From the sequence record NC_133119.1: a stretch of DNA of 64,000 bases, one strand, 5' to 3'. This document shows positions 5,535 through 38,042 of the stretch, piece after piece; within the stretch, counting starts at the first letter, position 1, and each line of letters opens with the position of its first letter. A program made the position numbers and the translations under genes. Origin of the DNA: Escherichia phage EscoHU1. A model generated the notes under the pieces. The model saw only the letters and a list, made by a program, of their open reading frames with translations. It did no database searches and was not told the origin of the DNA.

Positions 5535-5542
5535 GTGAAATT

Positions 5543-5945: not shown

Positions 5946-6638
5946 TTATTTGTTAACGCGTACAAAGTATCCTTTATAGGCTCCAAGAATGGAGTTACCT
6001 AAGAATACTAGCCACATTGCTAGGATTGCATAAGATGCACCTGTAGATTGAGCAGTTACAAGCCAAATGTATACAGTACCAATGTTAATAGCAATCCAGA
6101 TCAGCCATTGTTCAGCATATTGCTTGACCATAAGCCACATAGCAATCACACTACCAACCGCAGTAAATGCATCGAGCATCGGGAATGGATCAGCTGTAGT
6201 AGCAAGGAAGCTACCGTAACCTAAAGTAGCTACTGCTAGAACCCCTAGAGTCAGCAAAGCTTGGGCTTTAGTCAGAATCTTAGTTGGAACATCTGGCAGA
6301 TTACTTGGCTTATTTTTATGCCATAAGTACATTCCGTAGAACTGCATAGGAACGTAGTACAATAGGTTTAATGCTGCGTTACCATAAAGATCTGCATTTA
6401 AAGCTGTAATACCATAGGTAAGAACACCAACTAAGCCCCAAATATAGTTGGAAACGCGTCCTTTTGCAACCAAAATAACACAAACTACGTTGGTTATCGC
6501 AGTAGCCCAATCTAGAGGTGTACCATTATAGTTAGCTAAACTAATGAAGGCAACCGCTATGAACAGCCACAGATATTCCAGAGGTTTCCAGTTTTTAAAG
6601 TCATTTACGAGATAGTTAGTCATATTAAAACTCTCCAA
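5946..6638 (-). CDS. pnuC: nicotinamide riboside transporter PnuC-like membrane protein
   Basis: About 230 aa, multi-pass hydrophobic protein with W/Y-rich helices resembling PnuC; overlaps and follows the NadR-like gene. Confidence 0.65.
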   Translation of the reverse strand: MESFNMTNYLVNDFKNWKPLEYLWLFIAVAFISLANYNGTPLDWATAITNVVCVILVAKGRVSNYIWGLVGVLTYGITALNADLYGNAALNLLYYVPMQFYGMYLWHKNKPSNLPDVPTKILTKAQALLTLGVLAVATLGYGSFLATTADPFPMLDAFTAVGSVIAMWLMVKQYAEQWLIWIAINIGTVYIWLVTAQSTGASYAILAMWLVFLGNSILGAYKGYFVRVNK

Positions 6639-7680: not shown

Positions 7681-7710
7681 ATTTGATTCCTCTCTCAAAT
7701 TTATAAATAT

Positions 7711-7739
7711 ATTATACAGAGAATTTAGCATTCAAGCAA
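7711..7739 (-). promoter_or_regulatory. T5-type early promoter upstream of the NadR-like gene
   Basis: Reverse complement TTGCTT-17-TATAAT with conserved leader ...CATAAATTTGAGAGAGG. Confidence 0.5.
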
Positions 7740-7855
7740 TCGAATTTTTTAACTTTTTAGAGGAAAATCGCAGGGCACTTAAGGGTAGCAGATGAGTGGT
7801 GAGGACCAGAAATTGTTACCCCAATAAAAATCCGGGGGCAATTTTTAAAGACCCC

Positions 7856-7884
7856 TTGACATTTTCGCTGGGATAGGATAAAGT
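7856..7884 (+). promoter_or_regulatory. sigma70-like promoter (TTGACA-17-TAAAGT) for the plus-strand islet
   Basis: TTGACATTTTCGCTG motif, nearly identical to the promoter at 37111. Confidence 0.4.
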
Positions 7885-7945
7885 ATATGTTATGGATGAG
7901 TGATCAAAGAGACACACATTTTCTATATACTAGGAGGTGTCAAAA

Positions 7946-8974
7946 ATGACAGAAGAAGTAGCTAAGAAACCTGAATCTCTAAGTGAAGTAGCAGCAGAAC
8001 TGCATCGTCACGAAGAATCAGACAAGAAAAAGTGGGAAAAGCTTAAAGCTCAAGAGCGAGCTGACGAGCATCATTATCATCATCACCATCATGAACACTA
8101 TGAGGAAGATGATGAAGACGACGAAGAAGAAGATGAACATGAACATCATGGTTATCACAAATATGGAGAAAGAAAAATGCAAGAACCAGTAAACGTATTC
8201 ACTAACGGCTTCCCTGGCCTGATGGGTGGTTACCCAGCTAACGCAGGTGCTTTCGGTGGAGAAGGTATGGGTCTATTCGGAGCTATCCTAATCGGTGCTC
8301 TATTAACAGGCGGATTCGGTGGATTTGGTGGATTTGGCGGACGTGGAGCAGGTGCTGTGGCTGAATTAACTGGTGTAGAAACTGTTCTGAGTAACCAAAA
8401 TACGTCAAGTATCCTATCTGCAATCAATACTGCTCGTACTGAAGCTAACCAGGGAACTGGTGCTGTTCTAAGCGCAGTAAATGGTGTAGGTGCTGCAGGT
8501 GCTGCTAGCACTCAGCAGATTCTGACTTCTCTGTACGGTACTGGTGCTAACCTGTCCAATCAGATCTGTCAGGAAACTCGTAGCGTTATTCAGGGTCAGT
8601 TTGACCTGTCTCGCCAGATCGATCAGTCCTTCGCGGCTAACCAGATCGCTCGTGCTCAAGACAAGTTTGATGCTGCTCAGATCGCTTTCCAGCAGACTAT
8701 TCAGACTAACAACCAGTTCGCTGCTGTAGCTGCACAGGCGTGCGCTAACCAGAACGCTCTGGAACGTCAGATCGCTGAATGTTGCTGTGAACTTCAGACT
8801 GCAATCGCTGGTGTAACTACTGCGCGTATTCAGGATGAATTAGATGAATGCCGTCTGCGTGAAGCAATCGCTGCAGGTAATGGTGCTAATGGTCAGGTAA
8901 TCAACCAAATCGCTGTAAGTCTTGGTGCTATCACTCAGACTCTAGCTGGTCTGCAGGCTAAACTGCCGGCTTAA
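7946..8974 (+). CDS. low-complexity protein: His/acidic N-terminus, glycine-zipper hydrophobic segment, Ala/Gln-rich C-terminus with Cys cluster
   Basis: ATG at 7946 with AGGAGG RBS (ORF track starts at GTG 7937); HHYHHHHHEHYEEDDEDDEEEDEHEHH, GLFGAILIGALLTGGFGGFGGFGG, C-terminal AECCCE; host-like codon usage. Confidence 0.55.
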   Translation: MTEEVAKKPESLSEVAAELHRHEESDKKKWEKLKAQERADEHHYHHHHHEHYEEDDEDDEEEDEHEHHGYHKYGERKMQEPVNVFTNGFPGLMGGYPANAGAFGGEGMGLFGAILIGALLTGGFGGFGGFGGRGAGAVAELTGVETVLSNQNTSSILSAINTARTEANQGTGAVLSAVNGVGAAGAASTQQILTSLYGTGANLSNQICQETRSVIQGQFDLSRQIDQSFAANQIARAQDKFDAAQIAFQQTIQTNNQFAAVAAQACANQNALERQIAECCCELQTAIAGVTTARIQDELDECRLREAIAAGNGANGQVINQIAVSLGAITQTLAGLQAKLPA

Positions 8975-8996
8975 TAATTAAGGGGAGGAGCCCATT

Positions 8997-9431
8997 ATGA
9001 GTAAATATGGTTTTGTGAACAACGGATTTAATCAACAAATGGGCTCCCAGCAGCCCGTTCCGGGTCTAGATAACCCTTACTTACAACAGTTGCAACAGCG
9101 TTTGGCAGAAGCACAAAATATGCAACAGCAGTTCCAACAACCTGGAACTGCTAACCCTATGCAGATGATGCAACAGCAAATGGTAGGGCAGCCGCAAATG
9201 CCTCAACAAATGCAGCCTCAGATGCAGCAAATGCAACAAATGCCTCAACAGCAGCAAGTTCAACAACTCCAACATCCGCAGGTATCTGCGGAAGGACAGG
9301 CTGTTCTAGCCCTTTTCGAAGACTTCGCTAAAACAGAGGATGGGAAGCAACTTGTATCGCTTATGGGTAAGTTTAACAGCTTCTGTCAGAGTCAGGTTGC
9401 AAAAGCTCAGAATGGGGGTAATAACTCCTAA
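8997..9431 (+). CDS. Gln/Met-rich low-complexity protein
   Basis: 144 aa, GGAGG RBS, long Q/M/P-rich tract (QQQMVGQPQMPQQMQPQMQQMQQMPQQQQ). Confidence 0.5.
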   Translation: MSKYGFVNNGFNQQMGSQQPVPGLDNPYLQQLQQRLAEAQNMQQQFQQPGTANPMQMMQQQMVGQPQMPQQMQPQMQQMQQMPQQQQVQQLQHPQVSAEGQAVLALFEDFAKTEDGKQLVSLMGKFNSFCQSQVAKAQNGGNNS

Positions 9432-9440
9432 GGAGAAATT

Positions 9441-9635
9441 ATGTGTTGTAGAAAACCTGTGTCATGCTGTCCTATGCCTGTAGCACGTTGTTGCTCTCCA
9501 GCAATGTTTACACAAATACCGGTGTTCAATCCCTTTGCCTTTAAGCCTACTCTTATCCTGCCCCCTAGAGTAGATTTTCAGTCAAGATTGGTCTCCCGTA
9601 TGGGTGGTTGCTGTACACCGAGAGTATGGTTCTAA
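9441..9635 (+). CDS. small Cys-rich protein
   Basis: 64 aa ORF with GGAGA RBS, CC pairs at both ends (MCCRKPVSCCP...GGCCTP). Confidence 0.4.
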   Translation: MCCRKPVSCCPMPVARCCSPAMFTQIPVFNPFAFKPTLILPPRVDFQSRLVSRMGGCCTPRVWF

Positions 9636-9647
9636 ACCAAAAAACAA

Positions 9648-9682
9648 AAGCCCCTACGTCTTTTGACTAGGGGCTTTCTTGT
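9648..9682. terminator. bidirectional intrinsic terminator
   Basis: GC hairpin AGCCCCTA...TAGGGGCT flanked by A-run upstream and T-run downstream, between convergent genes. Confidence 0.55.
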
Positions 9683-10213
9683 TTATAAATTTAAGTAATC
9701 TAGAGAAGGTATCACACCATCAAATTCTTCTAGGATAGCAAACTCTCCAGCAAATTCTTTCCTCATTTCGTTAGCTTTTGCTATCGCACTTCCAAGATCT
9801 TCGTAACCAAAAGATCCTCCTGATCTTTTAATACCTTCCTTATCTCTTATTAATACTCTCCATTTTTGCCTGTTCTTCTCCCAGCATACATTAGCATACC
9901 CAGACTTAGACTTTAATTTCTTATTTCTTTGATTTTGAGAATCTGTAGATTCTCTTAGATTGTCCCATGCATTATTATTTCTAATCCTATCTTTATGATC
10001 GACCATGCTAGGTAGGTATCCTTTTACATAAAGGAATGCTAGAACATGGGCTAAGTACATTTTTCCAGAGATCTGAATTCTGATATATCCATCAGATGTT
10101 AGGCTTCCCGCAATGCTGCCGGCCTTCTTGTTTCCTCTACTAACCTTATATGTAAACAATCCAGTTTCTTGATCATAGTCAAAAAGCTCTTTCAATTTTT
10201 CTTGAGTTAACAT
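9683..10213 (-). CDS. HNH homing endonuclease with AP2-type DNA-binding domain
   Basis: 176 aa; N-terminal HNH_3-like region (YIRIQISGKMYLAHVLAF...VDHKDRIRNNNAWDNLRE) and C-terminal AP2-like region (GYANVCWEKNRQKWRVLIRDKEG). Confidence 0.7.
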   Translation of the reverse strand: MLTQEKLKELFDYDQETGLFTYKVSRGNKKAGSIAGSLTSDGYIRIQISGKMYLAHVLAFLYVKGYLPSMVDHKDRIRNNNAWDNLRESTDSQNQRNKKLKSKSGYANVCWEKNRQKWRVLIRDKEGIKRSGGSFGYEDLGSAIAKANEMRKEFAGEFAILEEFDGVIPSLDYLNL

Positions 10214-10229
10214 AAGTTCCTTAAATACA

Positions 10230-10263
10230 GAAAAGCCCTGCGCTCTCCAGGGAACGCAGGGCT
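10230..10263 (-). terminator. intrinsic terminator downstream of the SPFH gene
   Basis: Hairpin GCCCTGCG...CGCAGGGC followed by a T-run on the minus strand. Confidence 0.5.
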
Positions 10264-10287
10264 TACTTCAGAGATTACATGCTGGTA

Positions 10288-11235
10288 TTACTTATTACGC
10301 ATATCCATGATCATCTGGCCATCGTAACCAGTTCCCACTACTGTTTGCGGTACACCACCTTGGTATTTTTCAGCACGAAGCATTTCAACTTCCAGCTGCT
10401 TCCAACGAATCATTTCAGGAGTAATGGTACGTTGCAGAGCGGCGTTAGCTTCAGCTTCTTTCTTAGCTGCGTACAGTTTAGCATCTGCGTCACGTTCGTT
10501 AGCTACTGCCATGTTTTCACGAGCAGAGCGATCTGCTTCAGCTTGCTTAACTTTCTGCTGTGCTTCTTGTTCAACACGAGCCAGTTCAGCTTTTGCTGCG
10601 TTAACTTGTTCTTCACGAACTTTTGTGTTCTGTACCTGTTCCATAATTACCGGTGGCAGAGTAATATCCTGAAGGAATACTTGCTTAACGGTGTAACCAT
10701 AAGGGCGCGCATACTCTTCTACTTCTTGCTGAATAGCAGTTTGCAGTTGAGCCTGAATCTTAGCGTCGAACAGATCTTGTGCTTTTGGTACAGACTTACC
10801 AAACTCACGAATCGTAGATAGCATCTTCTCTTCAACGTATTTGTTAAGAGCTTGATCCTGAGTACCTGCGTTAACACGGTTCATAGGAGCTTTAGCTCCA
10901 TCAAACTGTAACATAACGGTAATGTCAACAGTAGACTTAAACTTATCCTGGCTAGGAACCTGAAGTTTATCCAGTTTCATAGAAATATCTTTCGTACTAA
11001 AAGTATCAAAAGAGGCTAATGGGTTAACAATATGGAAGCCTGGCAATACAGGATTCGGGCTAACTTTACCCAGGAAAGTTTGAGTCTTAACAGTACCATC
11101 CTGAACAACTGTATAGGAATTGAGAGCCAGAATAAGAGCACCAAGACCAACAGCAGCACCAACACCCCAACGTTTAATAGTACGAATTACTTTTTGCTCA
11201 GAAGTCAGTTCTTTAGTGTTTTTAGTAAACATATA
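10288..11235 (-). CDS. SPFH/band-7 (HflC/HflK/prohibitin-like) membrane protein
   Basis: N-terminal transmembrane helix then band-7-like domain and long coiled-coil tail; start taken at MFTKNTKEL because the longer ORF would overlap tRNA-Arg. Confidence 0.6.
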   Translation of the reverse strand, partial: YMFTKNTKELTSEQKVIRTIKRWGVGAAVGLGALILALNSYTVVQDGTVKTQTFLGKVSPNPVLPGFHIVNPLASFDTFSTKDISMKLDKLQVPSQDKFKSTVDITVMLQFDGAKAPMNRVNAGTQDQALNKYVEEKMLSTIREFGKSVPKAQDLFDAKIQAQLQTAIQQEVEEYARPYGYTVKQVFLQDITLPPVIMEQVQNTKVREEQVNAAKAELARVEQEAQQKVKQAEADRSARENMAVANERDADAKLYAAKKEAEANAALQRTITPEMIRWKQLEVEMLRAEKYQGGVPQTVVGTGYDGQMIMDMRNK

Positions 11236-11265
11236 TTTCCTTTGTTTAGTTACAGTTAATAAAAT

Positions 11266-11340
11266 TGGCCGAGGTGACAGGATTCGAACCTGCATAAAGG
11301 AATTTAGAAGACTCCTGCCTATCCCTTAGACTACACCCCG
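11266..11340 (-). tRNA. tRNA-Arg (anticodon UCU)
   Basis: Acceptor CGGGGTG/CACCTCG, anticodon stem GGAGT/ATTCC with loop CTTCTAA, T-arm GCAGG-TTCGAAT-CCTGT, CCA. Confidence 0.55.
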
Positions 11341-24682: not shown

Positions 24683-24711
24683 ATTATACTATTTTTAGTA
24701 GAGGTTGGCAA
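24683..24711 (-). promoter_or_regulatory. second leftward promoter in the divergent region (TTGCCA-17-TATAAT)
   Basis: Reverse complement TTGCCA, 17-nt spacer, TATAAT. Confidence 0.45.
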
Positions 24712-24772
24712 ATAAAATTTTTTGACTCAGATCAATTTACAGAATGTTATAGTAAAATATTGTTGACATCCG

Positions 24773-24801
24773 CCTTCGAATGAGTTATAATAGTAGTCTT
24801 A
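24773..24801 (+). promoter_or_regulatory. consensus sigma70 promoter upstream of nrdD
   Basis: TTGACA, 17-nt spacer, TATAAT, then AAGGAGAG RBS and ATG at 24821. Confidence 0.6.
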
Positions 24802-24820: not shown

Positions 24821-26695
24821 ATGAATCGCAATGAAGAACTAAAGTATAAAGGAATGCAGTCCTTGATTAGAAACTGCAAAGAAATTATCGAAGGATCAGC
24901 AGATGAAGAGCTACTCTTTAATAATGCGAACAAACCAAGTGAACGTTTCCCTACACAAAGGGATATGCTTGCAGGGGAATTGAGTAAATATCTGATTCTG
25001 GAAGAAATGCCAATCCAGATTCGAAATGCTCACATGATTGGTGATATTCACTTCCATGATGCTGATTACGCTGCGTTAGGTATGACTAACTGTTGCCTGG
25101 TTGCTTTGGAAGATATGTTGAAGAATGGTATGAAGGTTGGTAATGCTGAAATCAGTACACCAAACTCTATTACTACTGCGGCTGCTATCACAGCTCAGAT
25201 TATCACTCAGGTTAGCTCCCATCAATATGGTGGTACTTCTGTAGACCGATTAGATGAAGTACTGGCTCCTTATGTTCGTAAGTCTTATGATAAGAATCAT
25301 GCGTTTGCAAAGCGTTGGACTAAGGATGAAGCCAAAGCATCTGTAATGGCTACGGAAATGACTGAGAAAGAAGTTTACGATGCCTGTCAAGGTCTAGAGT
25401 ATGAAATCAATACGATGTTCAACTCTAATGGTCAGAGTCCATTTATTACCTTTGGTTTTGGTCTAGGAACTTCCTGGGAAGCACGTCTTGTACAGAAAGC
25501 AATCTTAGAAGTGCGTATGGATGGTTTGGGTATCAATAAACGTACAGCTATCTTTCCTAAACTGGTATTTGTTTTGCGTGATGGCGTAAATATGAAACCT
25601 GGTGATGTTAACTATGATATCAAGAAGTTAGCTATGAAATGTACTGCTGAACGTATATATCCTGACTACATCAGTTATGATAAGGTTGTAGAAGTTACGG
25701 GAGACTACAAAGTCTCTATGGGCTGTCGTTCATTCCTGGCTGCTGCGGAAGATGGTGAAACTTCTGGTCGTAACAACTTAGGCGTTGTTTCCGTAAACCT
25801 TCCTCGAATCGCTATCGAAGCGGAAGGAAATATTGATATATTCTTCGATCTGCTTGAGCTGCGTGTGGATACCGCGTTAAAAGCATTGGAGTGGAGGGTT
25901 GATCGCTTAAAATACATTCAAGCTAAAGCTGCGCCCATCCTCTATATGTCAGGAGCCTTTGGATTACGTCTGGGGCCAGATGAATATGTATTTGATCATT
26001 TCTACAAGCGTGCTTCTGTATCTCTAGGATATATTGGTTGCCACGAAATGTTGCAGCTCATGTTTGGTAAAGATGTAGATACAATGTCTGAGTCTTGTAC
26101 CAAGTTCGTTCAACGTGTGCTACAATATATGCGTGATCGTGCTGATCAGAAGAAGGAAGAGACTCAACTAGGGTATAGTCTGTATGCTACACCATCTGAA
26201 TCTCTATGTGATCGCTTCTGTCGCCTAGACCGTGAGTATTTCCCAGAGCATGAAGATATTCTGGCTAAAGGATATTACACTAATTCCCATCACCTTGATG
26301 TGGAACGTAAGGTTGCTCCAAATGTGAAGTTTGATTATGAGTCTAACTTTACTCCTATTGCTTCTGGTGGGTGCATTTCCTATGTGGAATTACCGGATAT
26401 GAAACGATTCCCTGATGCACTGGAATGGGTTATTAACTATGCTGCAAGTAAAGTTCATTACTTCGGTATTAATACTCCAGTAGACTCTTGTGGGGAATGT
26501 GGGTTCTTGGGTGAAACTATAGCTTCTGAGGATGGTTTCAAATGCCCAATTTGTGGCAATCATGATCCTGAGACTCTTGAGGTAACTCGTCGAGTTTGTG
26601 GATATCTTGGAAATCCAGGTGCTCGTCCATTTAACCCAGGTAAACAACATGAGGTTATGGGTCGAGTGAAACATCAGGACATTCGCGCTAAATAA
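24821..26695 (+). CDS. nrdD: anaerobic ribonucleoside-triphosphate reductase (class III)
   Basis: 624 aa; C-terminal zinc ribbon CPICG and glycyl-radical motif RVCGYLG. Confidence 0.85.
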   Translation: MNRNEELKYKGMQSLIRNCKEIIEGSADEELLFNNANKPSERFPTQRDMLAGELSKYLILEEMPIQIRNAHMIGDIHFHDADYAALGMTNCCLVALEDMLKNGMKVGNAEISTPNSITTAAAITAQIITQVSSHQYGGTSVDRLDEVLAPYVRKSYDKNHAFAKRWTKDEAKASVMATEMTEKEVYDACQGLEYEINTMFNSNGQSPFITFGFGLGTSWEARLVQKAILEVRMDGLGINKRTAIFPKLVFVLRDGVNMKPGDVNYDIKKLAMKCTAERIYPDYISYDKVVEVTGDYKVSMGCRSFLAAAEDGETSGRNNLGVVSVNLPRIAIEAEGNIDIFFDLLELRVDTALKALEWRVDRLKYIQAKAAPILYMSGAFGLRLGPDEYVFDHFYKRASVSLGYIGCHEMLQLMFGKDVDTMSESCTKFVQRVLQYMRDRADQKKEETQLGYSLYATPSESLCDRFCRLDREYFPEHEDILAKGYYTNSHHLDVERKVAPNVKFDYESNFTPIASGGCISYVELPDMKRFPDALEWVINYAASKVHYFGINTPVDSCGECGFLGETIASEDGFKCPICGNHDPETLEVTRRVCGYLGNPGARPFNPGKQHEVMGRVKHQDIRAK

Positions 26696-26699: not shown

Positions 26700-26735
26700 T
26701 CAGCCAGGTTGCTAGTCGACCTGGCTTTTATTTTA
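26700..26735 (+). terminator. intrinsic terminator after nrdD
   Basis: Hairpin AGCCAGGT...ACCTGGCT followed by TTTTATTTTATTT. Confidence 0.6.
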
Positions 26736-26793: not shown

Positions 26794-27075
26794 ATGAGCG
26801 AATTGCTTCCGAAAGTAGATGTTTCCCATCTTGGAGAGCCTAGTGAAGAACGTAAGGCTCTAGATTGGTTGGGCGGATTTGATTATCGTCGTGTTGTTGC
26901 AACATGGAATGATAAGAAAGTTAAGAAGTTTCGGATACATTATGTAGGTAAAGACAAGTGGCTCTGGATTGATTATGAAGAATCGAAGGGGTCTACTAAG
27001 GCTGTGAAAATTTATCGTATGTATGGGTATTATTATGCTCACTGTGATAAGAATGAATTTACAGTACAGAACTAA
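26794..27075 (+). CDS. hypothetical protein
   Basis: 93 aa ORF with GAGAGGAG RBS. Confidence 0.5.
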   Translation: MSELLPKVDVSHLGEPSEERKALDWLGGFDYRRVVATWNDKKVKKFRIHYVGKDKWLWIDYEESKGSTKAVKIYRMYGYYYAHCDKNEFTVQN

Positions 27076-27084
27076 GGAACAAGA

Positions 27085-27288
27085 ATGAAAAACGTAAAAC
27101 ATCTTAAGTATCGCTTAATTTACAACGGACGTATGGAAACAGAAGATCTAGCTCAGCTAGCGATCAATTCAGATGAAGTTACAGTTCGTGCTTTGTCCAT
27201 CGAGAAGCTGCGTGCTTCTTACGAAAATCGTATTATGGAATTGGAGGAAAAACTTTATGGACTTCTTGAATCAGAATCTAAAAAGTAA
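27085..27288 (+). CDS. hypothetical protein
   Basis: 67 aa ORF, AAGGAACAAG RBS. Confidence 0.4.
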   Translation: MKNVKHLKYRLIYNGRMETEDLAQLAINSDEVTVRALSIEKLRASYENRIMELEEKLYGLLESESKK

Positions 27289-27451
27289 TTTAGAAAATAT
27301 GCTTATGGAGCAGTGGAATGCTGGGTATAATGCTGGAGTAGCTACCTGTATTGCTGGTTTGGATATGCTTATTAAGCAAGAGAAGGTTCGCCCAGAAGAA
27401 GCAATTCTGCTCCAAAATATCATCGAAGGATTCAAGCAAGGAATCGTATAA
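27257..27451 (+). CDS. hypothetical protein
   Basis: Internal ATG at 27257 with GGAGGA RBS; the longer track ORF from 27173 would overlap the previous gene. Confidence 0.4.
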   Translation: MDFLNQNLKSNLENMLMEQWNAGYNAGVATCIAGLDMLIKQEKVRPEEAILLQNIIEGFKQGIV

Positions 27452-28302
27452 TGCGTAGACTAATCGTTGTTAGTGGTGCAGGTTTGAGTGTAGATAGTGG
27501 TGTTCGTGCTTTCCGTACTGATACTGCTAGTGGGAAATCCTTGTGGGATGAGTACGATCTAGAGGAAGTATGTAGCTTGCCTAACTTTGAAGCTGGCTTC
27601 CGTCGCTTCTGTGGTGAAGATGACCCTAACTACTTCAGTGCTCGTTTCCCTGGCATTGATGAAGATGGTAACGATCTGTATCTCAAGACTCATGAGTTCT
27701 ACAACATGCGTCGTCAGGAATTACAGACTGTTGAGCCTAACATTGCCCATCTGCGAATTGCAGAATGGTTCCAGCGTTATGGTGCGGATAGCGTGAAGAA
27801 CTTCACTACTAACGTTGATGACCTTCTGGAACGTGCTGGTATCCCTCGTGATGAAATCATTCACGCTCACGGGTACTTGAAAGAGGTGATCTATCGTCAG
27901 GGTCGCAACCAAATCATCGAAGATGTTGGGTATACTGCGATTGCCCCTGAGGATTACGAATGGGTAAAACCAAACGTAACATTCTTTGGTGAGACGGCTC
28001 CGTGGTATATGGGTCAGATTAACCTGTTTGATACACTTACTAGCAATGATATGGTTATTGTAGTAGGTTGTAGCAACCAAGTAATCGACTTCAACTGGGA
28101 GCTATTTCCTGCTGTATGTCGTGGAACTAAGATGATGGTTGTTAACCCACAAGTTCGTTATGACGAACAGCTTGAGTATGAGAAACGTGGTGTTACTGTA
28201 TGGCGTGCTGGAGCTGCCGAAGTTTTTGGTAACAAACAATTCATTGGCCAAGTTGAAGCTTTTATGGAAGGAACTATTTATGCACCAGAAAAGCATAGGT
28301 GA
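27451..28302 (+). CDS. Sir2-family (sirtuin-like) NAD-dependent protein
   Basis: GAGLSVDSGVRAFRT (sirtuin NAD-binding motif), catalytic-type HG (IIHAHGY), FFGE block; no Zn-ribbon cysteines. Confidence 0.55.
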   Translation: MRRLIVVSGAGLSVDSGVRAFRTDTASGKSLWDEYDLEEVCSLPNFEAGFRRFCGEDDPNYFSARFPGIDEDGNDLYLKTHEFYNMRRQELQTVEPNIAHLRIAEWFQRYGADSVKNFTTNVDDLLERAGIPRDEIIHAHGYLKEVIYRQGRNQIIEDVGYTAIAPEDYEWVKPNVTFFGETAPWYMGQINLFDTLTSNDMVIVVGCSNQVIDFNWELFPAVCRGTKMMVVNPQVRYDEQLEYEKRGVTVWRAGAAEVFGNKQFIGQVEAFMEGTIYAPEKHR

Positions 28303-28442
28303 TCTTTTAGTATGGCCGGACGGTAGTTGGTGCTACCGTTTCGAATTTGCTACCGATGACTTCTCATGGAAGAGTGATGATTTCTGTGTTATCTACGAAG
28401 ATACAGCAGAATGGAAAGAATTCCTGATTAAGGAGGGAGAAT

Positions 28443-28628
28443 ATGGTGAAGAAGATTTTTAAGGGTATCTGGAAAGGTCTAGTATGGTTTGTCAACCTAA
28501 TTGGTGTGATTACCATTTATTCTCTGTTCCTATCTGTTATATGGGGTAAAGGTGAACTGAAGGTTCCAGTTCCTTTTACTGATGAAGTTAAAGTCTGGAC
28601 GTGGGATGCTACTGGTGGAAATAAGTAA
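28443..28628 (+). CDS. small membrane protein
   Basis: 61 aa ORF with one hydrophobic helix (WFVNLIGVITIYSLFLSVIW), GGAG RBS. Confidence 0.4.
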   Translation: MVKKIFKGIWKGLVWFVNLIGVITIYSLFLSVIWGKGELKVPVPFTDEVKVWTWDATGGNK

Positions 28629-29121
28629 TACTCCTGTGATTTTCCTGGATATTGATGGGGTGCTCAATTCGAGCATCTCTCACCATCATGCCCCAGATAA
28701 TGAAAAGCTGTTCTTTGGCAGTGATTGGGTTTATAAACCATTACTCCAGGCTTTTCAGAACTTCCTTAAACCTTCTCCAATAATGATTGTTGGGGTATCT
28801 TCATGGTTTTCTGTACGAAACGAGATGGAGAACGTTCAGATTATGACCGGGCTCGGTTTGATCGATCGTTTCCTTGGTACAACAGATTTTACTGGAGGTG
28901 GTTTATCTCGAGGTAATTCTGTCTTACGTTTCGTAGAAAAACATAAGCTCAAGCATTGGTGCGTCCTAGATGATGCTGGTGCTATGATGTACCAATTTCC
29001 TACTGTTATTGTAAATGGCAGGACTGGAATAAACCTTCAAGATTTAAATGCTATCAGCTATATGCTGGAATTTAGTCCAGATCTTGAAATGTGTAAGGCT
29101 CTTCAGAAACTTAAGGTATAA
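28606..29121 (+). CDS. HAD-superfamily hydrolase-like protein
   Basis: FLDIDGVLN (HAD motif I DxDG) and VLDDAG; start at internal ATG 28606. Confidence 0.45.
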   Translation: MLLVEISNTPVIFLDIDGVLNSSISHHHAPDNEKLFFGSDWVYKPLLQAFQNFLKPSPIMIVGVSSWFSVRNEMENVQIMTGLGLIDRFLGTTDFTGGGLSRGNSVLRFVEKHKLKHWCVLDDAGAMMYQFPTVIVNGRTGINLQDLNAISYMLEFSPDLEMCKALQKLKV

Positions 29122-29159
29122 GCATGTTCAATAATATTTTCATGAAAGAGGTAAATCCT

Positions 29160-29552
29160 ATGCTTCTCAACTTCTGGTGCTCTCTCCCTAATGGTATGTA
29201 TAATGAAACCATCAATCTGCTCAAGATTTGGTGTGAGAATAACGATATCTTCTTATCCTTTAAAGGCCCGCTAGAGGAAGCTCCGTGTATTGGAGTTAGC
29301 GTGGATTTAGGGGAGGGAGTAGAAGAGATTGTAGACTGGAAAGAACTCGATGAAATGGGTCTGGTTTTTGCCTTGAACCATAAGCTGTTTATGCCTGCAA
29401 ATCACCGTCTTATTGTAAATTATCGCACTGGTGAAGCTCCTGCTTTCCAGGTAAATGAACGTGAGGGCTGGTCATATTCGCCCGAGGAAGTAAATGAGGG
29501 GATTCAGAAACTTCGTCGTTTCGGATATATGATCCCAGGTTTAACTGCTTAA
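29160..29552 (+). CDS. hypothetical protein, paralog A of a tandem pair
   Basis: AAGAGG RBS then ATG 29160; C-terminal half aligns with next gene (W.EL..MGL..ALN...F.P......TGE.P...V....W.Y.......L.R.G...PGL). Confidence 0.5.
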   Translation: MLLNFWCSLPNGMYNETINLLKIWCENNDIFLSFKGPLEEAPCIGVSVDLGEGVEEIVDWKELDEMGLVFALNHKLFMPANHRLIVNYRTGEAPAFQVNEREGWSYSPEEVNEGIQKLRRFGYMIPGLTA

Positions 29553-29561
29553 GGAGGCAGA

Positions 29562-29957
29562 ATGGAACAAGTATTTTGGCGTCAGATAGATCCTAGTTTG
29601 GTAGAGCGTGCTGAGGGGCTCCTTGCACGTTGGTTGGGGGTTGACAAGGTTAGTGTAACATTTCCGTTTACTTCTGTAACAGACCCTAGTGTAGGTGTCT
29701 TTGTGGACGAAAATGAAGATGATGGTTGGGAAGCTGACTGGAATGAATTGTCCAGCATGGGCTTGATTGTTGCCCTCAACTTCTCTATATTCCATCCACG
29801 TGGCTTAGCCATTACACGTGACCCCGAAACTGGTGAATCCCCTTATCTTTTGCAAGTAGAAGATGATATTTGGGAGTACACCGAAGATATTCTCGAAGAA
29901 GCTAAAGGTCAATTAAATCGCATTGGAATCTATGTCCCAGGCCTAAATGATGATTGA
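29562..29957 (+). CDS. hypothetical protein, paralog B of a tandem pair
   Basis: 131 aa; clear similarity to the preceding ORF; AAGGAGG RBS. Confidence 0.5.
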   Translation: MEQVFWRQIDPSLVERAEGLLARWLGVDKVSVTFPFTSVTDPSVGVFVDENEDDGWEADWNELSSMGLIVALNFSIFHPRGLAITRDPETGESPYLLQVEDDIWEYTEDILEEAKGQLNRIGIYVPGLNDD

Positions 29958-30048
29958 TTTTCATTAGCTCAATCCTGATTACCGAGTCAAAATGACTCGG
30001 TTTTCTCTGTGCTCAAGGACACTGATAGCACCTTCGGAAAAATTTTAC

Positions 30049-35877: not shown

Positions 35878-36096
35878 TTGATGAGAGGATCAATTATGGC
35901 AATGACAATAACACTTCCAAAGATTCAAGCAAAACTTAATTTGCTCTCCATAGCAAGAATCAATTACCAGGATAGTATCGGCACTCCAAACCAGAAAGCG
36001 TACAAAGATGCGTGGTTGAAAGAAGCTGCTGATTTAGCTGGTATGGCTGCGCAGTATAGTAAAGAACTCAAAATGGAAATCGCAGATGATGAATAA
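35878..36096 (+). CDS. hypothetical protein
   Basis: 72 aa ORF. Confidence 0.4.
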   Translation: MMRGSIMAMTITLPKIQAKLNLLSIARINYQDSIGTPNQKAYKDAWLKEAADLAGMAAQYSKELKMEIADDE

Positions 36097-37060
36097 TGTA
36101 AAAGACTTTATTAAACGTTGTCAAGAAGCGTACTACCAGGGAATGAGTCTTATTTCCGATGAAGAATATGATCGTCTGATTAAAAGATTCCCACTAGAGG
36201 AAGAAATCGGACCGAAAGGTGATATCCCTCATTTGTATCGTATGTATTCTTTGCAGAAAGTCTATTACGATCGTGGTGATAAAGCTCCATTCAACCCACT
36301 TGGTCAGGTTGAAACTGATAAGTTAGATGGTTGTGCGATTTCTCTATTATATATTAATGGTGAGTTTGTTCAAGCGTTAACTCGTGGTAACGGTATTCTA
36401 GGGAATGATGTAACGCATAATGTTAAAATGCTGAACATCCCCAAAACTATTTCCCAAAAAGTACCAACTCAAATCACTGGTGAAGTTCTCATTACTAAAG
36501 AAGTAGAGAACAAACGTAACTATGCTTCTGGTGCTATTAACCTGAAAGATAGTGATGATTTCATGCAACGTATTGGTGAAGGTGGTTTAATCTTCGTTGC
36601 ATATGGTATCCAGTGTTCAGCGGAAACAGTCGGTATTACAGAAGCCTATTTAAAAGATATGCTTTGGCTAGAGAATGAGAACTTCTTGACAGTTATTAAT
36701 GTTCGTTCCTTCTTTAAATGGATTCCGACAGATGGTAAAGTTGTTCGCATTAACGACAACAATAAATTCTTCCGTGAAGGTTGGACTAATAAATTTCCTC
36801 GTGGTGCATTTGCTATTAAAGAGGATGAAGAAGGCGAAATTACCACACTTGTTAAAGTTGAATGGCAAGTAGGGGCTTCTGGTAAAGTAACTCCAGTTGG
36901 TTATTTCGAACCGGTGATTATTGATGATGCCACAATCGTTAAAGCAACTCTTAATAACGTTGATTATATTAACGCTCTCGATTTAGAGATCGGTTGCCAG
37001 ATTCGAGTGATTCGTGCTGGTGGTGTAATCCCTTGTATAGTAGAGCGAGTATACGACTAA
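36086..37060 (+). CDS. NAD-dependent DNA ligase, N-terminal adenylation/OB portion
   Basis: Adenylation motif TDKLDGCAIS (KxDG) and motif-III-like block. Confidence 0.7.
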   Translation: MMNNVKDFIKRCQEAYYQGMSLISDEEYDRLIKRFPLEEEIGPKGDIPHLYRMYSLQKVYYDRGDKAPFNPLGQVETDKLDGCAISLLYINGEFVQALTRGNGILGNDVTHNVKMLNIPKTISQKVPTQITGEVLITKEVENKRNYASGAINLKDSDDFMQRIGEGGLIFVAYGIQCSAETVGITEAYLKDMLWLENENFLTVINVRSFFKWIPTDGKVVRINDNNKFFREGWTNKFPRGAFAIKEDEEGEITTLVKVEWQVGASGKVTPVGYFEPVIIDDATIVKATLNNVDYINALDLEIGCQIRVIRAGGVIPCIVERVYD

Positions 37061-37232: not shown

Positions 37233-37262
37233 ATTTATATAAATTGATAAGGAAGAAATTTG

Positions 37263-38042
37263 ATGAAAATCGAAATTCCAACACAATGTCCCTCTTGTGG
37301 TTCTAAGCTAGATCTTGTCAACGGGCAATTATTCTGTAGGAATAAGTCCAACTGTCCAGCGCAATCAAGTAAGTTAATCGAGAACTTCTGCACAAAAATG
37401 AAGTTAAAGGGCTTTGGCCCGAAAACTATTGAGAAGCTGGAACTGACTAAGATCTCAGAACTGTTTTACCTGACCGAAGAAGATTTGGTCGGAGCTGTGG
37501 GTAGCAAGGTTGCCGCTAAGTTGATTAGCGAGTTAAATACTAAGGTTCGCGGAGACATTGACTTTGGTTCGGTTCTCGGTTCTTTAGGAATTCCTCTTAT
37601 TGGAGAGGTTGCAGCAAAGAAACTGTCCCAAAATTGCACTAGCTTCCACGATGTGAAGGCTGACGGCAAGGCTGGAGAAAATTACAAAACCTGGCTAAAT
37701 TCCCCACAAGGCAAGGATGTTATTGAATTACCATGGAAATTCTCAACTGGTATTCGAGGTACTAAAGCTGATATCATCATTACGGATGATTTAGTTGCCC
37801 AGCCAAATGGAATCACGATCTGTATTACCGGATCTTTGCAAGATTTTGCAAATCGAACGGATGCAACAAACTATTTAGAAAGTCTAGGATATACGGTTAA
37901 GAAATCCGTTACCAAAGACGTCAAATACCTAATCTGTGAGGATGAATCAAAACGTTCTTCCTCATCTTATAAGAAAGCCGAAACGAATGGGATAGAAATC
38001 CTGTCGATTAAAGAACTATTGGAGAAAAATAATAATGTCTAA
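37263..38042 (+). CDS. NAD-dependent DNA ligase, C-terminal zinc-finger/HhH/BRCT portion
   Basis: C4 zinc finger CPSCGSKLD...CRNKSNCP, helix-hairpin-helix-like GFGPKTIEKL, C-terminal BRCT-like region. Confidence 0.65.
   Translation: MKIEIPTQCPSCGSKLDLVNGQLFCRNKSNCPAQSSKLIENFCTKMKLKGFGPKTIEKLELTKISELFYLTEEDLVGAVGSKVAAKLISELNTKVRGDIDFGSVLGSLGIPLIGEVAAKKLSQNCTSFHDVKADGKAGENYKTWLNSPQGKDVIELPWKFSTGIRGTKADIIITDDLVAQPNGITICITGSLQDFANRTDATNYLESLGYTVKKSVTKDVKYLICEDESKRSSSSYKKAETNGIEILSIKELLEKNNNV

What the first reader, a model, noticed from the sequence alone, without database searches (positions are those of the whole stretch)
27451..28302. Sir2-like protein in an NAD+-centred gene set
The product has the sirtuin NAD-binding motif GAGxSxxSGxxxFR (GAGLSVDSGVRAFRT), a catalytic-type His (IIHAHGY) and an FGE block, but lacks the usual zinc-ribbon cysteines. 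Its substrate cannot be inferred. A divergent phage sirtuin (deacylase or ADP-ribosyltransferase) alongside NAD+ salvage genes and an NAD-dependent ligase points to deliberate control of the NAD+ pool.
Basis: partly seen in the sequence, partly recalled or inferred. Interest (0 to 1): 0.55.

Follow-up and report, generated by a model that had tools for sequence, protein, structure and literature searches.

The report
Zinc-less phage sirtuin paired with phosphatase
This is a real but already-annotated sirtuin gene of a T5-like phage; its conserved partner is an RNA-repair-type phosphatase rather than the NAD+ salvage genes 20 kb away, and its substrate has never been tested.

Summary
It passes Pfam SIR2 (77.7 bits, cut-off 24). 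It matches phage family phrog_2162 at full length (E 8e-107). Its confident AlphaFold model is closest to E. coli CobB and other class III sirtuins.

The window is a T5-like phage (Epseptimavirus, about 98% identical to Salmonella phage Stitch). This gene is labelled "Sir2-like" in hundreds of records. Both the "Zn-less phage sirtuin plus NAD+ salvage" idea (2016) and a rival RNA-repair idea (2022) are published. I found no experiment on either.

The "NAD+-centred gene set" is weak here. PnuC/NadR (the characterised NARP3 counter-defence pair) lie 20 kb upstream on the other strand, and the NAD+ ligase is 8 kb downstream. The conserved partner is a HAD_SAK_2 phosphatase two genes downstream. 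In other phage lineages the orthologue sits beside RNA ligase 1, a polynucleotide kinase, cREC and Nudix genes.

My best reading (confidence 0.4) is an NAD+-consuming accessory enzyme working with RNA-end or phospho-ADP-ribose processing enzymes. A CobB-like protein deacylase remains a serious rival (0.3). Knock-down of the T5 orthologues showed no fitness effect on a laboratory host.

The parts
27451..28302 (+). Zn-less class-III-derived sirtuin (283 aa), a member of phage family phrog_2162 and orthologue of T5 gene T5.102
   Evidence: ORF and motifs. Pfam SIR2 77.7 bits. phrog_2162 E 8e-107. AF2 pLDDT 88.8 with CobB as top fold match. Invariant catalytic residues.
28606..29121 (+). HAD_SAK_2 capless HAD phosphatase (171 aa; the mechanical ORF starts at 28582), the conserved partner of the sirtuin and orthologue of T5.105
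   Evidence: Pfam PF18143 E 3.8e-19. DxDGV motif plus invariant D122-D123. AF2 pLDDT 94.7. Lies 0-460 bp downstream of the sirtuin in 31 of 35 T5-like loci. Gene order is inverted but linkage is kept in L067 and L068.
28280..28462 (+). Small ORF (60 aa, phrog_5116) between the sirtuin and HAD; variable among T5-like phages
   Evidence: Absent where HAD abuts the sirtuin (distance 0 in L039, L042, L044, L045).
28443..28628 (+). Small hydrophobic ORF (61 aa, phrog_11166) between the sirtuin and HAD
   Evidence: No counterpart in T5.
26794..27451 (+). Three small ORFs upstream of the sirtuin (26794-27075, 27085-27288, 27257-27451; phrog_7953, 5236, 5827), function unknown
   Evidence: Only the middle one is conserved in T5.
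29124..29957 (+). Two paralogous DUF7415 genes (29124-29552, 29562-29957) that close the cluster
   Evidence: Pfam PF24187 E 2.6e-35 and 4.2e-28. Present in all 33 T5-like loci that were scored.
26702..26726 (+). Terminator-like hairpin after nrdD, the upstream boundary of the sirtuin cluster
   Evidence: 10-bp stem, 6 GC pairs, T-run.
29981..30001 (+). Terminator-like hairpin, the downstream boundary of the sirtuin cluster
   Evidence: 9-bp stem plus T-run. A terminator is annotated at the same place in phage Stitch.
5946..7731 (-). PnuC-like transporter (5946-6638) and NadR-like NMNAT/NR kinase (6625-7731), the NARP3 NAD+ reconstitution pair. Context only; not part of the sirtuin unit.
   Evidence: Pfam NMN_transporter E 1.9e-43; AAA_28 plus CTP_transf_like. 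phrog_1880 and phrog_3462. Function shown for the Bas30 orthologues in PMC13464706.
36086..38042 (+). Split NAD-dependent DNA ligase (36086-37060, 37260-38042). Context only.
   Evidence: Annotated in Stitch at the equivalent positions. 95-96% identical to the T5-like counterparts.

Best explanation
The gene encodes a catalytically competent sirtuin that derives from the CobB-like class III branch. It has lost the zinc-binding cysteines and changed three substrate-facing positions. It belongs to a compact subfamily, found so far in phage records and metagenome contigs, that moves between phage families.

It works as an accessory early function together with the HAD_SAK_2 phosphatase encoded two genes downstream. 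It does not work with the distant NAD+ salvage genes.

Most likely mechanism (inferred, not shown):
- The enzyme uses NAD+ as a co-substrate to remove an anionic blocking group from damaged RNA. The published proposal is a 2'-phosphate, removed the way Tpt1/KptA does it.
- A substrate oxygen attacks C1'' of NAD+ and nicotinamide leaves.
- The His140-activated ribose 2''-OH then resolves the adduct to a phosphorylated ADP-ribose.
- The HAD either trims RNA terminal phosphates or dephosphorylates that ADP-ribose product.
- Where a phage also has an NAD+ reconstitution pathway, ADP-ribose and nicotinamide can be turned back into NAD+.

Shown here: fold, intact NAD+ pocket and catalytic residues, loss of the Zn cysteines, conserved linkage to HAD and to RNA-end-processing genes, and dispensability in the laboratory. 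Inferred: the substrate and the chemistry.
For: Active enzyme:
- G9-A-G, S13, S16, F21, R22, N121, D123, H140, F179-G-E181, G206, S208 and N232 are invariant or nearly so in 57 close and 62 wider homologues.
- The model is confident and sirtuin-like.

Anionic substrate:
- Y84 and R87 align with CobB Y92 and R95. The mapping is anchored by the Y92A, I131C and V187Y mutant chains 6rxs and 6rxm.
- They are kept in 62/62 and 60/62 sequences.
- In SIRT5 and CobB this pair binds the carboxylate of succinyl-lysine (established knowledge).

Shifted substrate site:
- The Gln of QNID becomes Thr120 in 58/62 sequences. CobB V219-Y220-P221 becomes V-I-N/D, with Pro in only 3/62.
- Thr120 co-occurs with loss of the Zn cysteines among 142 representative relatives: 33/40 against 8/85, odds ratio 45.

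Not a CobB equivalog: 35-88 bits against cut-offs of 221-395.

Gene context:
- HAD_SAK_2 is adjacent in 31/35 T5-like loci. It stays linked with inverted order in L067 and L068.
- It is lost together with the sirtuin in one deletion in phage DT57C.
- rV5- and PVP-SE1-like phages have Rnl1, cREC, sirtuin plus a kinase and a metallophosphoesterase.
- A jumbo Asteriusvirus has sirtuin, Nudix, cREC.
- A 607-kb contig has Rnl1 two genes upstream.
- In all, 11 of 20 independent lineages have such neighbours.
- A T5-like contig (L016) carries a PVP-SE1-type allele next to HAD. The same enzyme therefore serves different partner sets.

Accessory role: T5.102 and T5.105 are scored 'Not Fit' in the CRISPRi-ART screen (PMC11879866 supplements).

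Prior work: the same prediction was made in PMC9503650, section 3.7.3.
Against: - There is no biochemical evidence for any member.
- The protein is acidic (pI 4.8, clade median 5.3), like CobB, with no shift towards a nucleic-acid-binding charge.
- This 64-kb window has no RNA ligase, polynucleotide kinase, cREC, Nudix or metallophosphoesterase. A repair pathway here would need host enzymes.
- 7 of 20 lineages show neither partner class, including the ~150-kb myoviruses whose sirtuin is closest to this one among non-T5-like phages (60% identity).
- The 'RNA repair' meaning of HAD_SAK_2 and cREC is itself a computational prediction from the same laboratory.
- The HAD fold search does not separate polynucleotide phosphatases from sugar-phosphate phosphatases.
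- In Serratia phage ChuuTotoro, HAD_SAK_2 sits in a Prs/Nampt-type operon with no sirtuin within 28 kb.
- Phage early regions pack nucleotide-metabolism genes together, so adjacency is weaker evidence than in bacteria.
- The CRISPRi-ART screen also scored some replication genes 'Not Fit', so it is not very sensitive.
Confidence: 0.4

Rival explanations
1. It is a CobB-like NAD+-dependent protein lysine deacylase, possibly with a preference for acidic acyl groups such as succinyl. It removes acyl marks from host or phage proteins during infection. The published suggestion is activation of acetyl-CoA synthetase.
For: - The closest sequence and fold relatives are all protein deacylases: CobB, Sir2-Af1/Af2, SIRT5.
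- The catalytic His, the FGE loop and the class III Y-x-x-R pair are all kept.
- The three-stranded sheet of the small domain persists in the model without zinc.
- Its acidic pI resembles CobB.
- Proposed for the Vibrio phage homologues in PMC5107563.
Against: - It scores far below every NCBIfam CobB-type cut-off.
- The peptide-stapling V-Y-P loop has lost its proline in 59/62 sequences, and the QNID Gln is replaced.
- No lysine acetyltransferase or acyl-metabolism gene is linked to it.
- The linked genes are RNA-end or phospho-sugar enzymes.
- The 2016 proposal rested on homology modelling only.
Confidence: 0.3
2. It is an ADP-ribosyltransferase that modifies a host or phage macromolecule (protein, RNA or DNA) to take over or protect a process, in the manner of SirTM or the T4 Alt/Mod enzymes.
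For: - Some sirtuins are primarily ADP-ribosyltransferases (established knowledge; reviewed in PMC9503650).
- The altered substrate loop and Zn loss indicate a non-canonical substrate.
- The dispensable, fast-diverging, horizontally swapped allele pattern is typical of host-interaction genes.
Against: - There is no linked Macro or other ADP-ribose-removing gene, which is the hallmark of SirTM-type systems.
- The catalytic His, which is needed for the second chemical step rather than for simple transfer, is invariant.
- The Y-x-x-R pair is not explained.
Confidence: 0.15
3. It acts on the NAD+ pool or on NAD+-derived small molecules. It could be an NADase, a regulator of NAD+ level, or an enzyme that converts defence-generated ADP-ribose derivatives, with the HAD dephosphorylating phospho-ADP-ribose so that it can be recycled.
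For: - Phages with this sirtuin often carry an NAD+ reconstitution pathway. NARP3 is in this window. Prs/Nampt-type pairs lie 1.5-6.6 kb away in PVP-SE1-like and other loci. 5 of 20 lineages have such genes within 7 kb.
- HAD_SAK_2 heads a Prs/Nampt-type operon in ChuuTotoro. That is the position taken by the Macro-domain ADPR-1''-phosphate phosphatase Adpp in NARP1-AP operons (10.64898/2026.01.28.702374).
Against: - A phage-encoded NADase would oppose the phage's own NAD+ reconstitution genes and its NAD+-dependent ligase.
- There is no match to any defence-type Sir2 NADase model.
- In T5-like phages the sirtuin-HAD pair is about twice as widespread as NARP3, and it is present in T5 itself, whose record appears among the HAD matches. 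Whether T5 lacks the NadR-like gene was not checked.
- NARP3 is 20 kb away on the other strand.
- None of the NARP papers reports a sirtuin component.
Confidence: 0.1

Closest known systems
E. coli CobB and other class III sirtuins (SIRT5, Sir2-Af1)
   Same: - Best sequence and structure match: E 1.7e-16; Foldseek E about 1e-15, TM 0.82.
- Same GAGxSxxSG...FR, N-x-D, catalytic His and FGE motifs.
- Same Y-x-x-R anion-binding pair (Y84/R87 = CobB Y92/R95).
   Different: - No Zn-ribbon cysteines.
- The Gln of QNID is Thr.
- V-Y-P becomes V-I-D (N in most relatives), and GTS becomes GCS.
- A variable insert of about 30 residues in the helical module.
- Scores far below the CobB equivalog cut-offs.
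- Encoded by a virulent phage next to a phosphatase.
Phage sirtuin clade of Iyer et al. 2022 (PMC9503650, section 3.7.3), neighbourhood type 3 typified by Escherichia phage SP15; PHROG phrog_2162; T5 gene T5.102
   Same: - Same family (phrog_2162, E 8e-107).
- Same genome position between nrdD and the replication genes.
- Same HAD 'Swiss army knife' partner.
   Different: - This allele is only 51-52% identical to the T5/SP15 allele, while the flanking genes are 89-97% identical.
- Two extra small ORFs separate the sirtuin from HAD.
Tpt1/KptA RNA 2'-phosphotransferase
   Same: It is the proposed functional analogue. It is NAD+-consuming, releases nicotinamide, uses two-step chemistry through a 1''-adduct resolved by the ribose 2''-OH, and is linked to RNA ligases and end-healing enzymes.
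   Different: It has an unrelated fold and no sequence similarity. Nothing here tests the activity. The resemblance is mechanistic reasoning plus gene context only.
Defence-associated Sir2 NADases (ThsA, DSR1/2, SIR2-HerA, SIR2-pAgo)
   Same: Sirtuin superfamily, usually without a Zn ribbon, at the centre of the phage-host NAD+ conflict.
   Different: - No PADLOC model matches.
- It matches Pfam SIR2 (PF02146); no other Pfam family was reported.
- It is a single-domain protein with no sensor domain.
- It is encoded by the phage rather than the host.
NARP3 (PnuC + NadR-like; Bas30_87/86) and NARP1-AP (Adps + Namat + Macro phosphatase Adpp)
   Same: They are in the same genome (NARP3) or the same neighbourhoods in other phages (Prs/Nampt-type pairs). 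The logic of a phosphatase feeding ADP-ribose into NAD+ rebuilding may apply to HAD_SAK_2.
   Different: The sirtuin is not part of any characterised NARP operon. NARP3 is 20 kb away on the opposite strand. Adpp is a Macro domain, not a HAD.

Membership tests
Sirtuin superfamily (Pfam SIR2, PF02146) | Profile match above the curated cut-off | tested here: met
   77.7 bits against a cut-off of 24, E 1.4e-21.
Sirtuin superfamily (Pfam SIR2, PF02146) | Rossmann fold plus small domain of sirtuins | tested here: met
   AF2 pLDDT 88.8, pTM 0.87. The top 50 Foldseek PDB hits are all sirtuins, led by CobB at TM 0.82.
Sirtuin superfamily (Pfam SIR2, PF02146) | NAD+-pocket and catalytic residues (GAGxS, F-R, N-x-D, His, FGE, GxS, C-terminal N) | tested here: met
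   All present, and invariant or nearly so in 57 and 62 homologues.
Sirtuin superfamily (Pfam SIR2, PF02146) | NAD+-dependent catalysis | not testable with these tools
   Needs an enzyme assay.
CobB-type NAD+-dependent protein deacylase (NCBIfam equivalogs NF040867, NF001755 and others) | Score above the equivalog cut-off | tested here: not met
   35-88 bits against cut-offs of 221-395.
CobB-type NAD+-dependent protein deacylase | Four-cysteine Zn ribbon in the small domain | tested here: not met
   No Cys in residues 141-176. CobB has 4 in the aligned stretch.
CobB-type NAD+-dependent protein deacylase | Canonical substrate-site residues (QNID Gln; V-Y-P loop with Pro) | tested here: not met
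   T120 replaces Gln. V211-I212-D213 replaces V-Y-P. Pro occurs in 3 of 62 clade members.
CobB-type NAD+-dependent protein deacylase | Class III Y-x-x-R pair | tested here: met
   Y84 and R87 align with CobB Y92 and R95; kept in 62/62 and 60/62.
CobB-type NAD+-dependent protein deacylase | Deacylation of acyl-lysine | not testable with these tools
   Needs peptide or protein assays.
Phage sirtuin clade (phrog_2162; Iyer 2022 RNA-repair-associated clade) | Full-length match to the phage family profile | tested here: met
   E 7.8e-107, residues 1-278 on profile positions 10-275 of 277.
Phage sirtuin clade (phrog_2162; Iyer 2022 RNA-repair-associated clade) | Conserved neighbourhood with RNA-end-processing genes (type 3: standalone SAK-type HAD) | tested here: met
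   HAD_SAK_2 at 28606-29121, E 3.8e-19. Adjacent in 31/35 T5-like loci.
Phage sirtuin clade (phrog_2162; Iyer 2022 RNA-repair-associated clade) | No adjacent Macro-domain gene | tested here: met
   None of the neighbours scanned gave a Macro-domain hit.
Tpt1/KptA RNA 2'-phosphotransferase | Homology to the KptA/Tpt1 fold | tested here: not met
   Only SIR2 is hit in Pfam, and the fold is a sirtuin fold. Any relation is functional analogy.
Tpt1/KptA RNA 2'-phosphotransferase | NAD+-dependent removal of RNA 2'-phosphate, giving ADP-ribose 1'',2''-cyclic phosphate | not testable with these tools
   Needs an assay with 2'-phosphorylated RNA and LC-MS of the products.
Defence-associated Sir2 NADases (ThsA, DSR, SIR2-HerA, SIR2-pAgo) | Match to a defence-system Sir2 model, with an associated sensor or partner gene | tested here: not met
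   No PADLOC hit at E <= 0.01 for the sirtuin, HAD or DUF7415 proteins. It is a single-domain protein in a virulent phage.
SirTM (Macro-linked ADP-ribosylating sirtuins) | Operon with a Macro-domain protein; catalytic His replaced | tested here: not met
   No Macro neighbour. His140 is invariant.
NARP3 NAD+ reconstitution module | Two-gene PnuC + NadR-like operon | tested here: met
   Present at 5946-7731 on the minus strand. The NadR-like protein is 98-100% identical over its full length to the counterparts in Epseptimavirus-type phages (Eps7, SpoonbillGilly). Bas30/TrudiRoth, the phage characterised in PMC13464706, is a ~98% DNA relative of this window.
NARP3 NAD+ reconstitution module | The sirtuin is a component of the module | tested here: not met
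   It is 20 kb away on the opposite strand. The paper describes two genes only. The sirtuin-HAD pair occurs in about twice as many T5-like records.

The most novel reading that the evidence does not exclude
The Zn-less 'T-N-x-D' phage sirtuins would be the first sirtuins whose physiological substrate is a phosphate group rather than an acyl-lysine. One version is an NAD+-dependent RNA 2'-phosphotransferase convergent with Tpt1/KptA. A second version is an enzyme acting on phosphorylated ADP-ribose, for example running the sirtuin nicotinamide-exchange reaction on ADPR-1''-phosphate. In both, the Y84/R87 pair would hold the phosphate and the HAD_SAK_2 phosphatase would clean up the phospho-ADP-ribose product. 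This would tie tRNA/RNA repair to the NAD+ arms race between phages and bacterial defences.
Probability: 0.3. Interest if true: 0.75.

Novelty: already known. Interest (0 to 1): 0.33.

Why it matters
Homologues of this sirtuin occur in about 2% of sequenced phage genomes (977 of 50,697 records). They include the model phage T5 and many therapy candidates, and none has been assayed. The family sits where two very active topics meet: NAD+ depletion and reconstitution in anti-phage defence, and repair of RNA cut by defence nucleases. If it proved to be a phosphate-directed sirtuin, that would extend sirtuin chemistry and add a counter-defence mechanism. As a finding from this window, however, it only re-identifies an annotated gene, and both functional hypotheses are already in print. 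The practical value here is a sharper, testable picture: pair it with the HAD gene, not with NARP3.

Tried and rejected
- **Defence-type Sir2:** rejected. No PADLOC hit.
- **CobB equivalog:** rejected on score, Zn cysteines and substrate-loop residues.
- **Sirtuin as part of NARP3:** rejected on distance, strand and distribution.
- **Second 'Sir2' annotated at 28606-29121 in RefSeq records:** a mislabel carried by phrog_18062. The protein is a HAD.
- **HAD structure to decide RNA end against small-molecule substrate:** inconclusive. It is a capless HAD with weak hits to both KdsC/MDP-1 and PNKP phosphatases. It has no solved sequence relative.
- **HAD_SAK_2 context in T4-like phages (Morganella Rgz1, Aeromonas Aes508):** uninformative. 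No sirtuin and no recognisable repair genes nearby.
- **Vibrio schizoT4-like, ~150-kb myovirus and several metagenomic lineages:** no recognisable partner genes.
- **Charge as a sign of RNA binding:** no support; the proteins are acidic.
- **Literature searches for experimental work on phage sirtuins:** only in-silico proposals found. Two functional-genomics papers were checked. HIDEN-SEQ does not mention the gene. The CRISPRi-ART supplements gave the 'Not Fit' calls.
- **Burroughs & Aravind 2016, which defined the SAK HAD family:** could not be retrieved.
- **RNA ligase, kinase, cREC, Nudix and metallophosphoesterase homologues in the whole window:** none found.
Full report
**1.

The ORF 27451-28302 on the plus strand encodes 283 residues. 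The translation carries GAGLSVDSGVRAFRT (residues 9-23), IIHAHGY (136-142) and FGE (179-181). It has four cysteines (41, 54, 207, 223). None lies in residues 141-176, the stretch that aligns with the four Zn-ribbon cysteines of E. coli CobB.

The match to sirtuins is not marginal:
- Pfam SIR2 gives 77.7 bits against a cut-off of 24.
- The phage family phrog_2162 matches end to end with E 7.8e-107.
- The best solved relative is CobB, with E 1.7e-16 for the single sequence and 5e-25 for a profile.
- An AlphaFold2 model built on 57 homologues is confident (pLDDT 88.8, pTM 0.87). It keeps a three-stranded sheet where the Zn ribbon would be.
- All of the top 50 Foldseek hits in the PDB are sirtuins. 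CobB comes first (TM 0.82 on the target), followed by Sir2-Af1 and SIRT5.

**2. Where the window comes from, and what is already known**

The region is 98% identical to T5-like siphoviruses of the genus Epseptimavirus, such as Salmonella phage Stitch. The gene is annotated 'Sir2-like protein' or 'NAD-dependent deacetylase' in most of these records. tblastn finds a homologue in 977 of 50,697 phage records. These include T5-like, rV5-like, PVP-SE1-like and Vibrio KVP40-like phages and jumbo phages.

Two papers already discuss the family:
- Skliros et al. 2016 (PMC5107563) noted the missing zinc ligands and the co-occurrence with NAD+ salvage genes. They proposed a deacetylase that activates acetyl-CoA synthetase, and they named T5 as another carrier.
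- Iyer et al. 2022 (PMC9503650, section 3.7.3) described most viral sirtuins as one clade linked to RNA-repair genes. They proposed a KptA-like removal of RNA 2'-phosphate. Their third neighbourhood type is the T5-like phage SP15, where the sirtuin sits with a 'Swiss army knife' HAD phosphatase.

I found no experimental study of any member. None of the papers on phage NAD+ reconstitution mentions a phage sirtuin.

**3. The surroundings in this window**

A 12/12 consensus promoter (24763-24791) precedes nrdD (24821-26695), and a strong terminator-like hairpin follows it (26702-26726). The sirtuin cluster comes next:
- three small ORFs of unknown function (26794-27451);
- the sirtuin;
- two small ORFs (28280-28462 and 28443-28628);
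- a 171-residue protein (28606-29121);
- two DUF7415 paralogues (29124-29957);
- a second strong hairpin (29981-30001).

The 171-residue protein is Pfam HAD_SAK_2, 'HAD domain in Swiss Army Knife RNA repair proteins' (E 3.8e-19). It has the DxDGV nucleophile motif and an invariant D122-D123 pair. RefSeq records call it a second 'Sir2' because phrog_18062 carries that label. This is a mislabel.

The NAD+ salvage genes are PnuC (5946-6638) and a NadR-like NMN adenylyltransferase/NR kinase (6625-7731). Both are on the minus strand about 20 kb upstream. They are the NARP3 pair, which has been shown to rebuild NAD+ and defeat Sir2-HerA defence (PMC13464706). The split NAD+-dependent ligase lies 8-10 kb downstream. 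The 'NAD+-centred gene set' is therefore a property of the genome, not of an operon.

**4. What travels with the sirtuin**

I collected 65 loci with up to 10 kb of flank on each side. I searched them with profiles built from the candidate partners.

- **T5-like loci.** HAD_SAK_2 lies 0-460 bp downstream on the same strand in 31 of 35. The exceptions include three contigs (L010, L011, L019) in which DUF7415 follows the sirtuin directly. Their sirtuins are 56-63% identical to this one.
- **Divergent T5-like contigs.** In two of them the order is HAD, then small ORFs, then sirtuin. Linkage survives rearrangement.
- **Phage DT57C.** One deletion has removed most of the sirtuin, the small ORFs and most of the HAD together, leaving a 90-residue 'defective' remnant.
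- **rV5-like and PVP-SE1-like myoviruses.** The orthologue (46-55% identical) sits in the operon Rnl1, cREC, sirtuin, ATP-dependent DNA ligase. A polynucleotide-kinase-type P-loop protein and a calcineurin-like phosphoesterase lie close by.
- **A jumbo Asteriusvirus.** The order is sirtuin, Nudt16-like Nudix, cREC.
- **A 607-kb viral contig.** A 35%-identical homologue has a T4-type RNA ligase two genes upstream.

Collapsing the loci into 20 lineages at 70% sirtuin identity gives this tally:
- 11 lineages have RNA-end-processing-type neighbours within 7 kb;
- 5 have Prs/Nampt-type genes, and 3 of those also have the first kind;
- 7 have neither.

Whole-collection counts point the same way. The NadR-like gene occurs at 80% identity or more in about 205 records. 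The sirtuin-adjacent HAD occurs at that level in about 434, including T5 itself.

**5. Sequence features that bear on the substrate**

Mapping to CobB is anchored by the named mutant chains 6rxs (Y92A, I131L, V187Y) and 6rxm (I131C), whose changed residues are visible in the alignments.

| Window residue(s) | CobB residue(s) |
|---|---|
| Y84, R87 | Y92, R95 |
| T120, N121, V122, D123 | Q129, N130, I131, D132 |
| H140 | H147 |
| V176 | V187 |
| F179-G-E | F190-G-E |
| V211-I212-D213 | V219-Y220-P221 |

Conservation across 62 unique sequences of 33-99% identity:
- The NAD+-pocket and catalytic residues are invariant or nearly so, which argues for an active enzyme.
- The class III Y-x-x-R pair is kept in 62/62 (Tyr) and 60/62 (Arg) sequences. 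In SIRT5 and CobB it binds the carboxylate of succinyl-lysine (established knowledge). This suggests an anionic group in the acyl pocket.
- Three substrate-facing positions have shifted. Gln becomes Thr120 in 58/62. Tyr becomes Ile212 in 58/62. Pro becomes Asn or Asp in 58/62.

A search of 1.84 billion representative proteins gives only 18 clusters at E <= 1e-30 and 316 at E <= 1e-10, so the clade is compact. Among 142 of the best representatives, Thr120 goes with loss of the Zn cysteines (33 of 40). Gln goes with their retention (77 of 85). The odds ratio is 45 and Fisher p is 5e-16, not corrected for phylogeny.

The protein scores 35-88 bits on NCBIfam CobB-type models whose cut-offs are 221-395. 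It matches no defence-system model in PADLOC. In short, it is a sirtuin, but neither a CobB equivalog nor a defence NADase.

**6. Evidence on importance and evolution**

In the CRISPRi-ART knock-down screen of T5, the sirtuin orthologue T5.102 and the HAD orthologue T5.105 are both scored 'Not Fit' on a laboratory E. coli strain (PMC11879866, supplementary files 8 and 16). The screen also scored some replication genes 'Not Fit', so its sensitivity is limited. The result still agrees with the natural deletion in DT57C: the pair is accessory.

The sirtuin is also a divergence hotspot:
- Between this phage and T5 the flanking genes are 89-97% identical (nrdD 89%, HAD 92%, origin-binding protein 94%, ligase 95%). 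The sirtuin is only 52% identical.
- It is closer to the alleles of L010/L011-type T5-like contigs (63%) and of ~150-kb myoviruses (60%).
- One T5-like contig (L016) carries a PVP-SE1-type allele next to its HAD.

The gene is therefore exchanged between phage families and keeps working beside different partner sets.

**7. The HAD partner and the NAD+ link**

The HAD model is very confident (pLDDT 94.7) and is a minimal, capless HAD. Its structural neighbours are weak and mixed. KdsC-like proteins and MDP-1 come at E about 1e-3, and the phosphatase domains of T4 and mammalian PNKP at E 0.06-0.1. The substrate class is not resolved.

In Serratia phage ChuuTotoro, a HAD_SAK_2 gene heads an operon with Prs-type and Nampt-type genes, and there is no sirtuin within 28 kb. 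A 2026 preprint shows that NARP1 operons (Adps, Namat) can carry a Macro-domain phosphatase, Adpp. Adpp converts ADPR-1''-phosphate to ADPR so that NAD+ can be rebuilt after attack by RES-type NAD+ phosphorylases (10.64898/2026.01.28.702374). By position, HAD_SAK_2 could play a similar role. This is inference.

That offers a way to reconcile the two kinds of context. A sirtuin that transfers ADP-ribose onto a phosphate would release nicotinamide and a phosphorylated ADP-ribose. cREC or 2H enzymes, HAD or Nudix could process that product. NAD+ reconstitution enzymes could recycle it.

**8. Verdict on mechanism**

My best-supported explanation (confidence 0.4) has two parts. The protein is an active, Zn-less, class-III-derived sirtuin. 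It acts with HAD_SAK_2 as an accessory NAD+-consuming module in RNA-end or phospho-ADP-ribose processing, most likely removal of an RNA 2'-phosphate as Iyer et al. proposed.

Points against:
- There is no biochemistry.
- The protein is acidic (pI 4.8, clade median 5.3), like CobB.
- This window has no RNA ligase, kinase, cREC, Nudix or phosphoesterase.
- 7 of 20 lineages have no recognisable partner.
- The meaning of HAD_SAK_2 and cREC is itself predicted rather than measured.

Rivals:
- A CobB-like lysine deacylase, perhaps preferring acidic acyl groups (0.3).
- An ADP-ribosyltransferase (0.15).
- A direct role on the NAD+ pool or on NAD+-derived small molecules (0.1).

**9. Novelty and score**

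The feature is real but already known. Near-identical genes are annotated in hundreds of genomes, the clade has been described, and both functional hypotheses are published.

What this analysis adds:
- The partner is HAD, not NARP3.
- The linkage survives inversion of gene order and joint deletion.
- The Y-x-x-R pair is universally kept while three substrate-site residues shift together with Zn loss.
- The gene is an exchange hotspot.
- Knock-down data show it is dispensable in the laboratory.

The family remains an attractive, easily testable unknown in the NAD+ and RNA-repair arms race. As a finding from this window it deserves a modest score.

Noticed in passing
window 28606-29121 (ORF from 28582): RefSeq re-annotations of T5-like phages label this HAD_SAK_2 phosphatase 'Sir2 (NAD-dependent deacetylase)' because phrog_18062, which matches only its C-terminal half, carries that name. 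The mislabel has spread to many records.
   Followed up: yes
window 27451-28302 compared with L035 (T5), L010, L016: The sirtuin is a divergence or exchange hotspot. It is 52% identical to the T5 allele while flanking genes are 89-97% identical. It is closer to the alleles of L010/L011-type T5-like contigs (63%) and of ~150-kb myoviruses (60%). One T5-like contig carries a PVP-SE1-type allele. The small ORFs on either side are also variable.
   Followed up: partly
L071 (Escherichia phage DT57C) 2468-2740: A single deletion fuses a C-terminal piece of the sirtuin to the C-terminal end of the HAD gene, leaving a 90-aa 'defective sir2'. This is a natural joint loss of both genes in a viable phage.
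   Followed up: yes
L069 / L070 (Serratia phage ChuuTotoro), HAD at L069 5001-5510: HAD_SAK_2 is the first gene of an operon with ribose-phosphate pyrophosphokinase-type and Nampt-type genes (NARP1-like by domain content), with no sirtuin within 28 kb. It occupies the position of the Macro phosphatase Adpp in NARP1-AP operons. This suggests a possible HAD-type ADPR-phosphate phosphatase.
   Followed up: partly
window 29124-29552 and 29562-29957: Two tandem DUF7415 paralogues close the sirtuin cluster in every T5-like locus examined. They follow the sirtuin directly in the lineages that lack HAD (L010, L011, L019). The T5 orthologue of the second one (T5.107) is scored 'Fit' in the CRISPRi-ART screen, unlike the sirtuin and HAD.
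   Followed up: partly
window 5946-7731 (minus strand): A PnuC-like transporter and a NadR-like enzyme lacking the HTH domain. This is the NARP3 NAD+ reconstitution pair characterised in phage Bas30 (TrudiRoth). The NadR-like gene is present at 80% identity or more in about 205 phage records.
   Followed up: yes
window 335-11340 (minus strand): Fourteen tRNA genes (two Lys, two Met, plus Pro, Asp, Asn, Cys, Trp, Glu, Tyr, Leu, Ser, Arg). A large tRNA set is relevant to tRNA-cutting host defences, and so to the RNA-repair reading of the sirtuin-HAD pair.
   Followed up: no
window 24683-24791: Back-to-back near-consensus sigma-70-type promoters. One on the plus strand at 24763-24791 scores 12/12 and lies ahead of nrdD. 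One on the minus strand at 24711-24683 scores 11/12. Together they mark a divergent early-transcription switch point.
   Followed up: no
window 28443-28628: A 61-aa ORF with a strongly hydrophobic central segment (probably a membrane peptide, phrog_11166) is inserted between the sirtuin and HAD. It has no counterpart in T5.
   Followed up: no
L064 10713-11198 and L063 8818-9723: Distant sirtuin homologues on very large viral contigs have unusual neighbours. One is a nucleoside 2-deoxyribosyltransferase-like protein directly downstream (L064). The other is an arginase-family protein between the RNA ligase and the sirtuin (L063).
   Followed up: no
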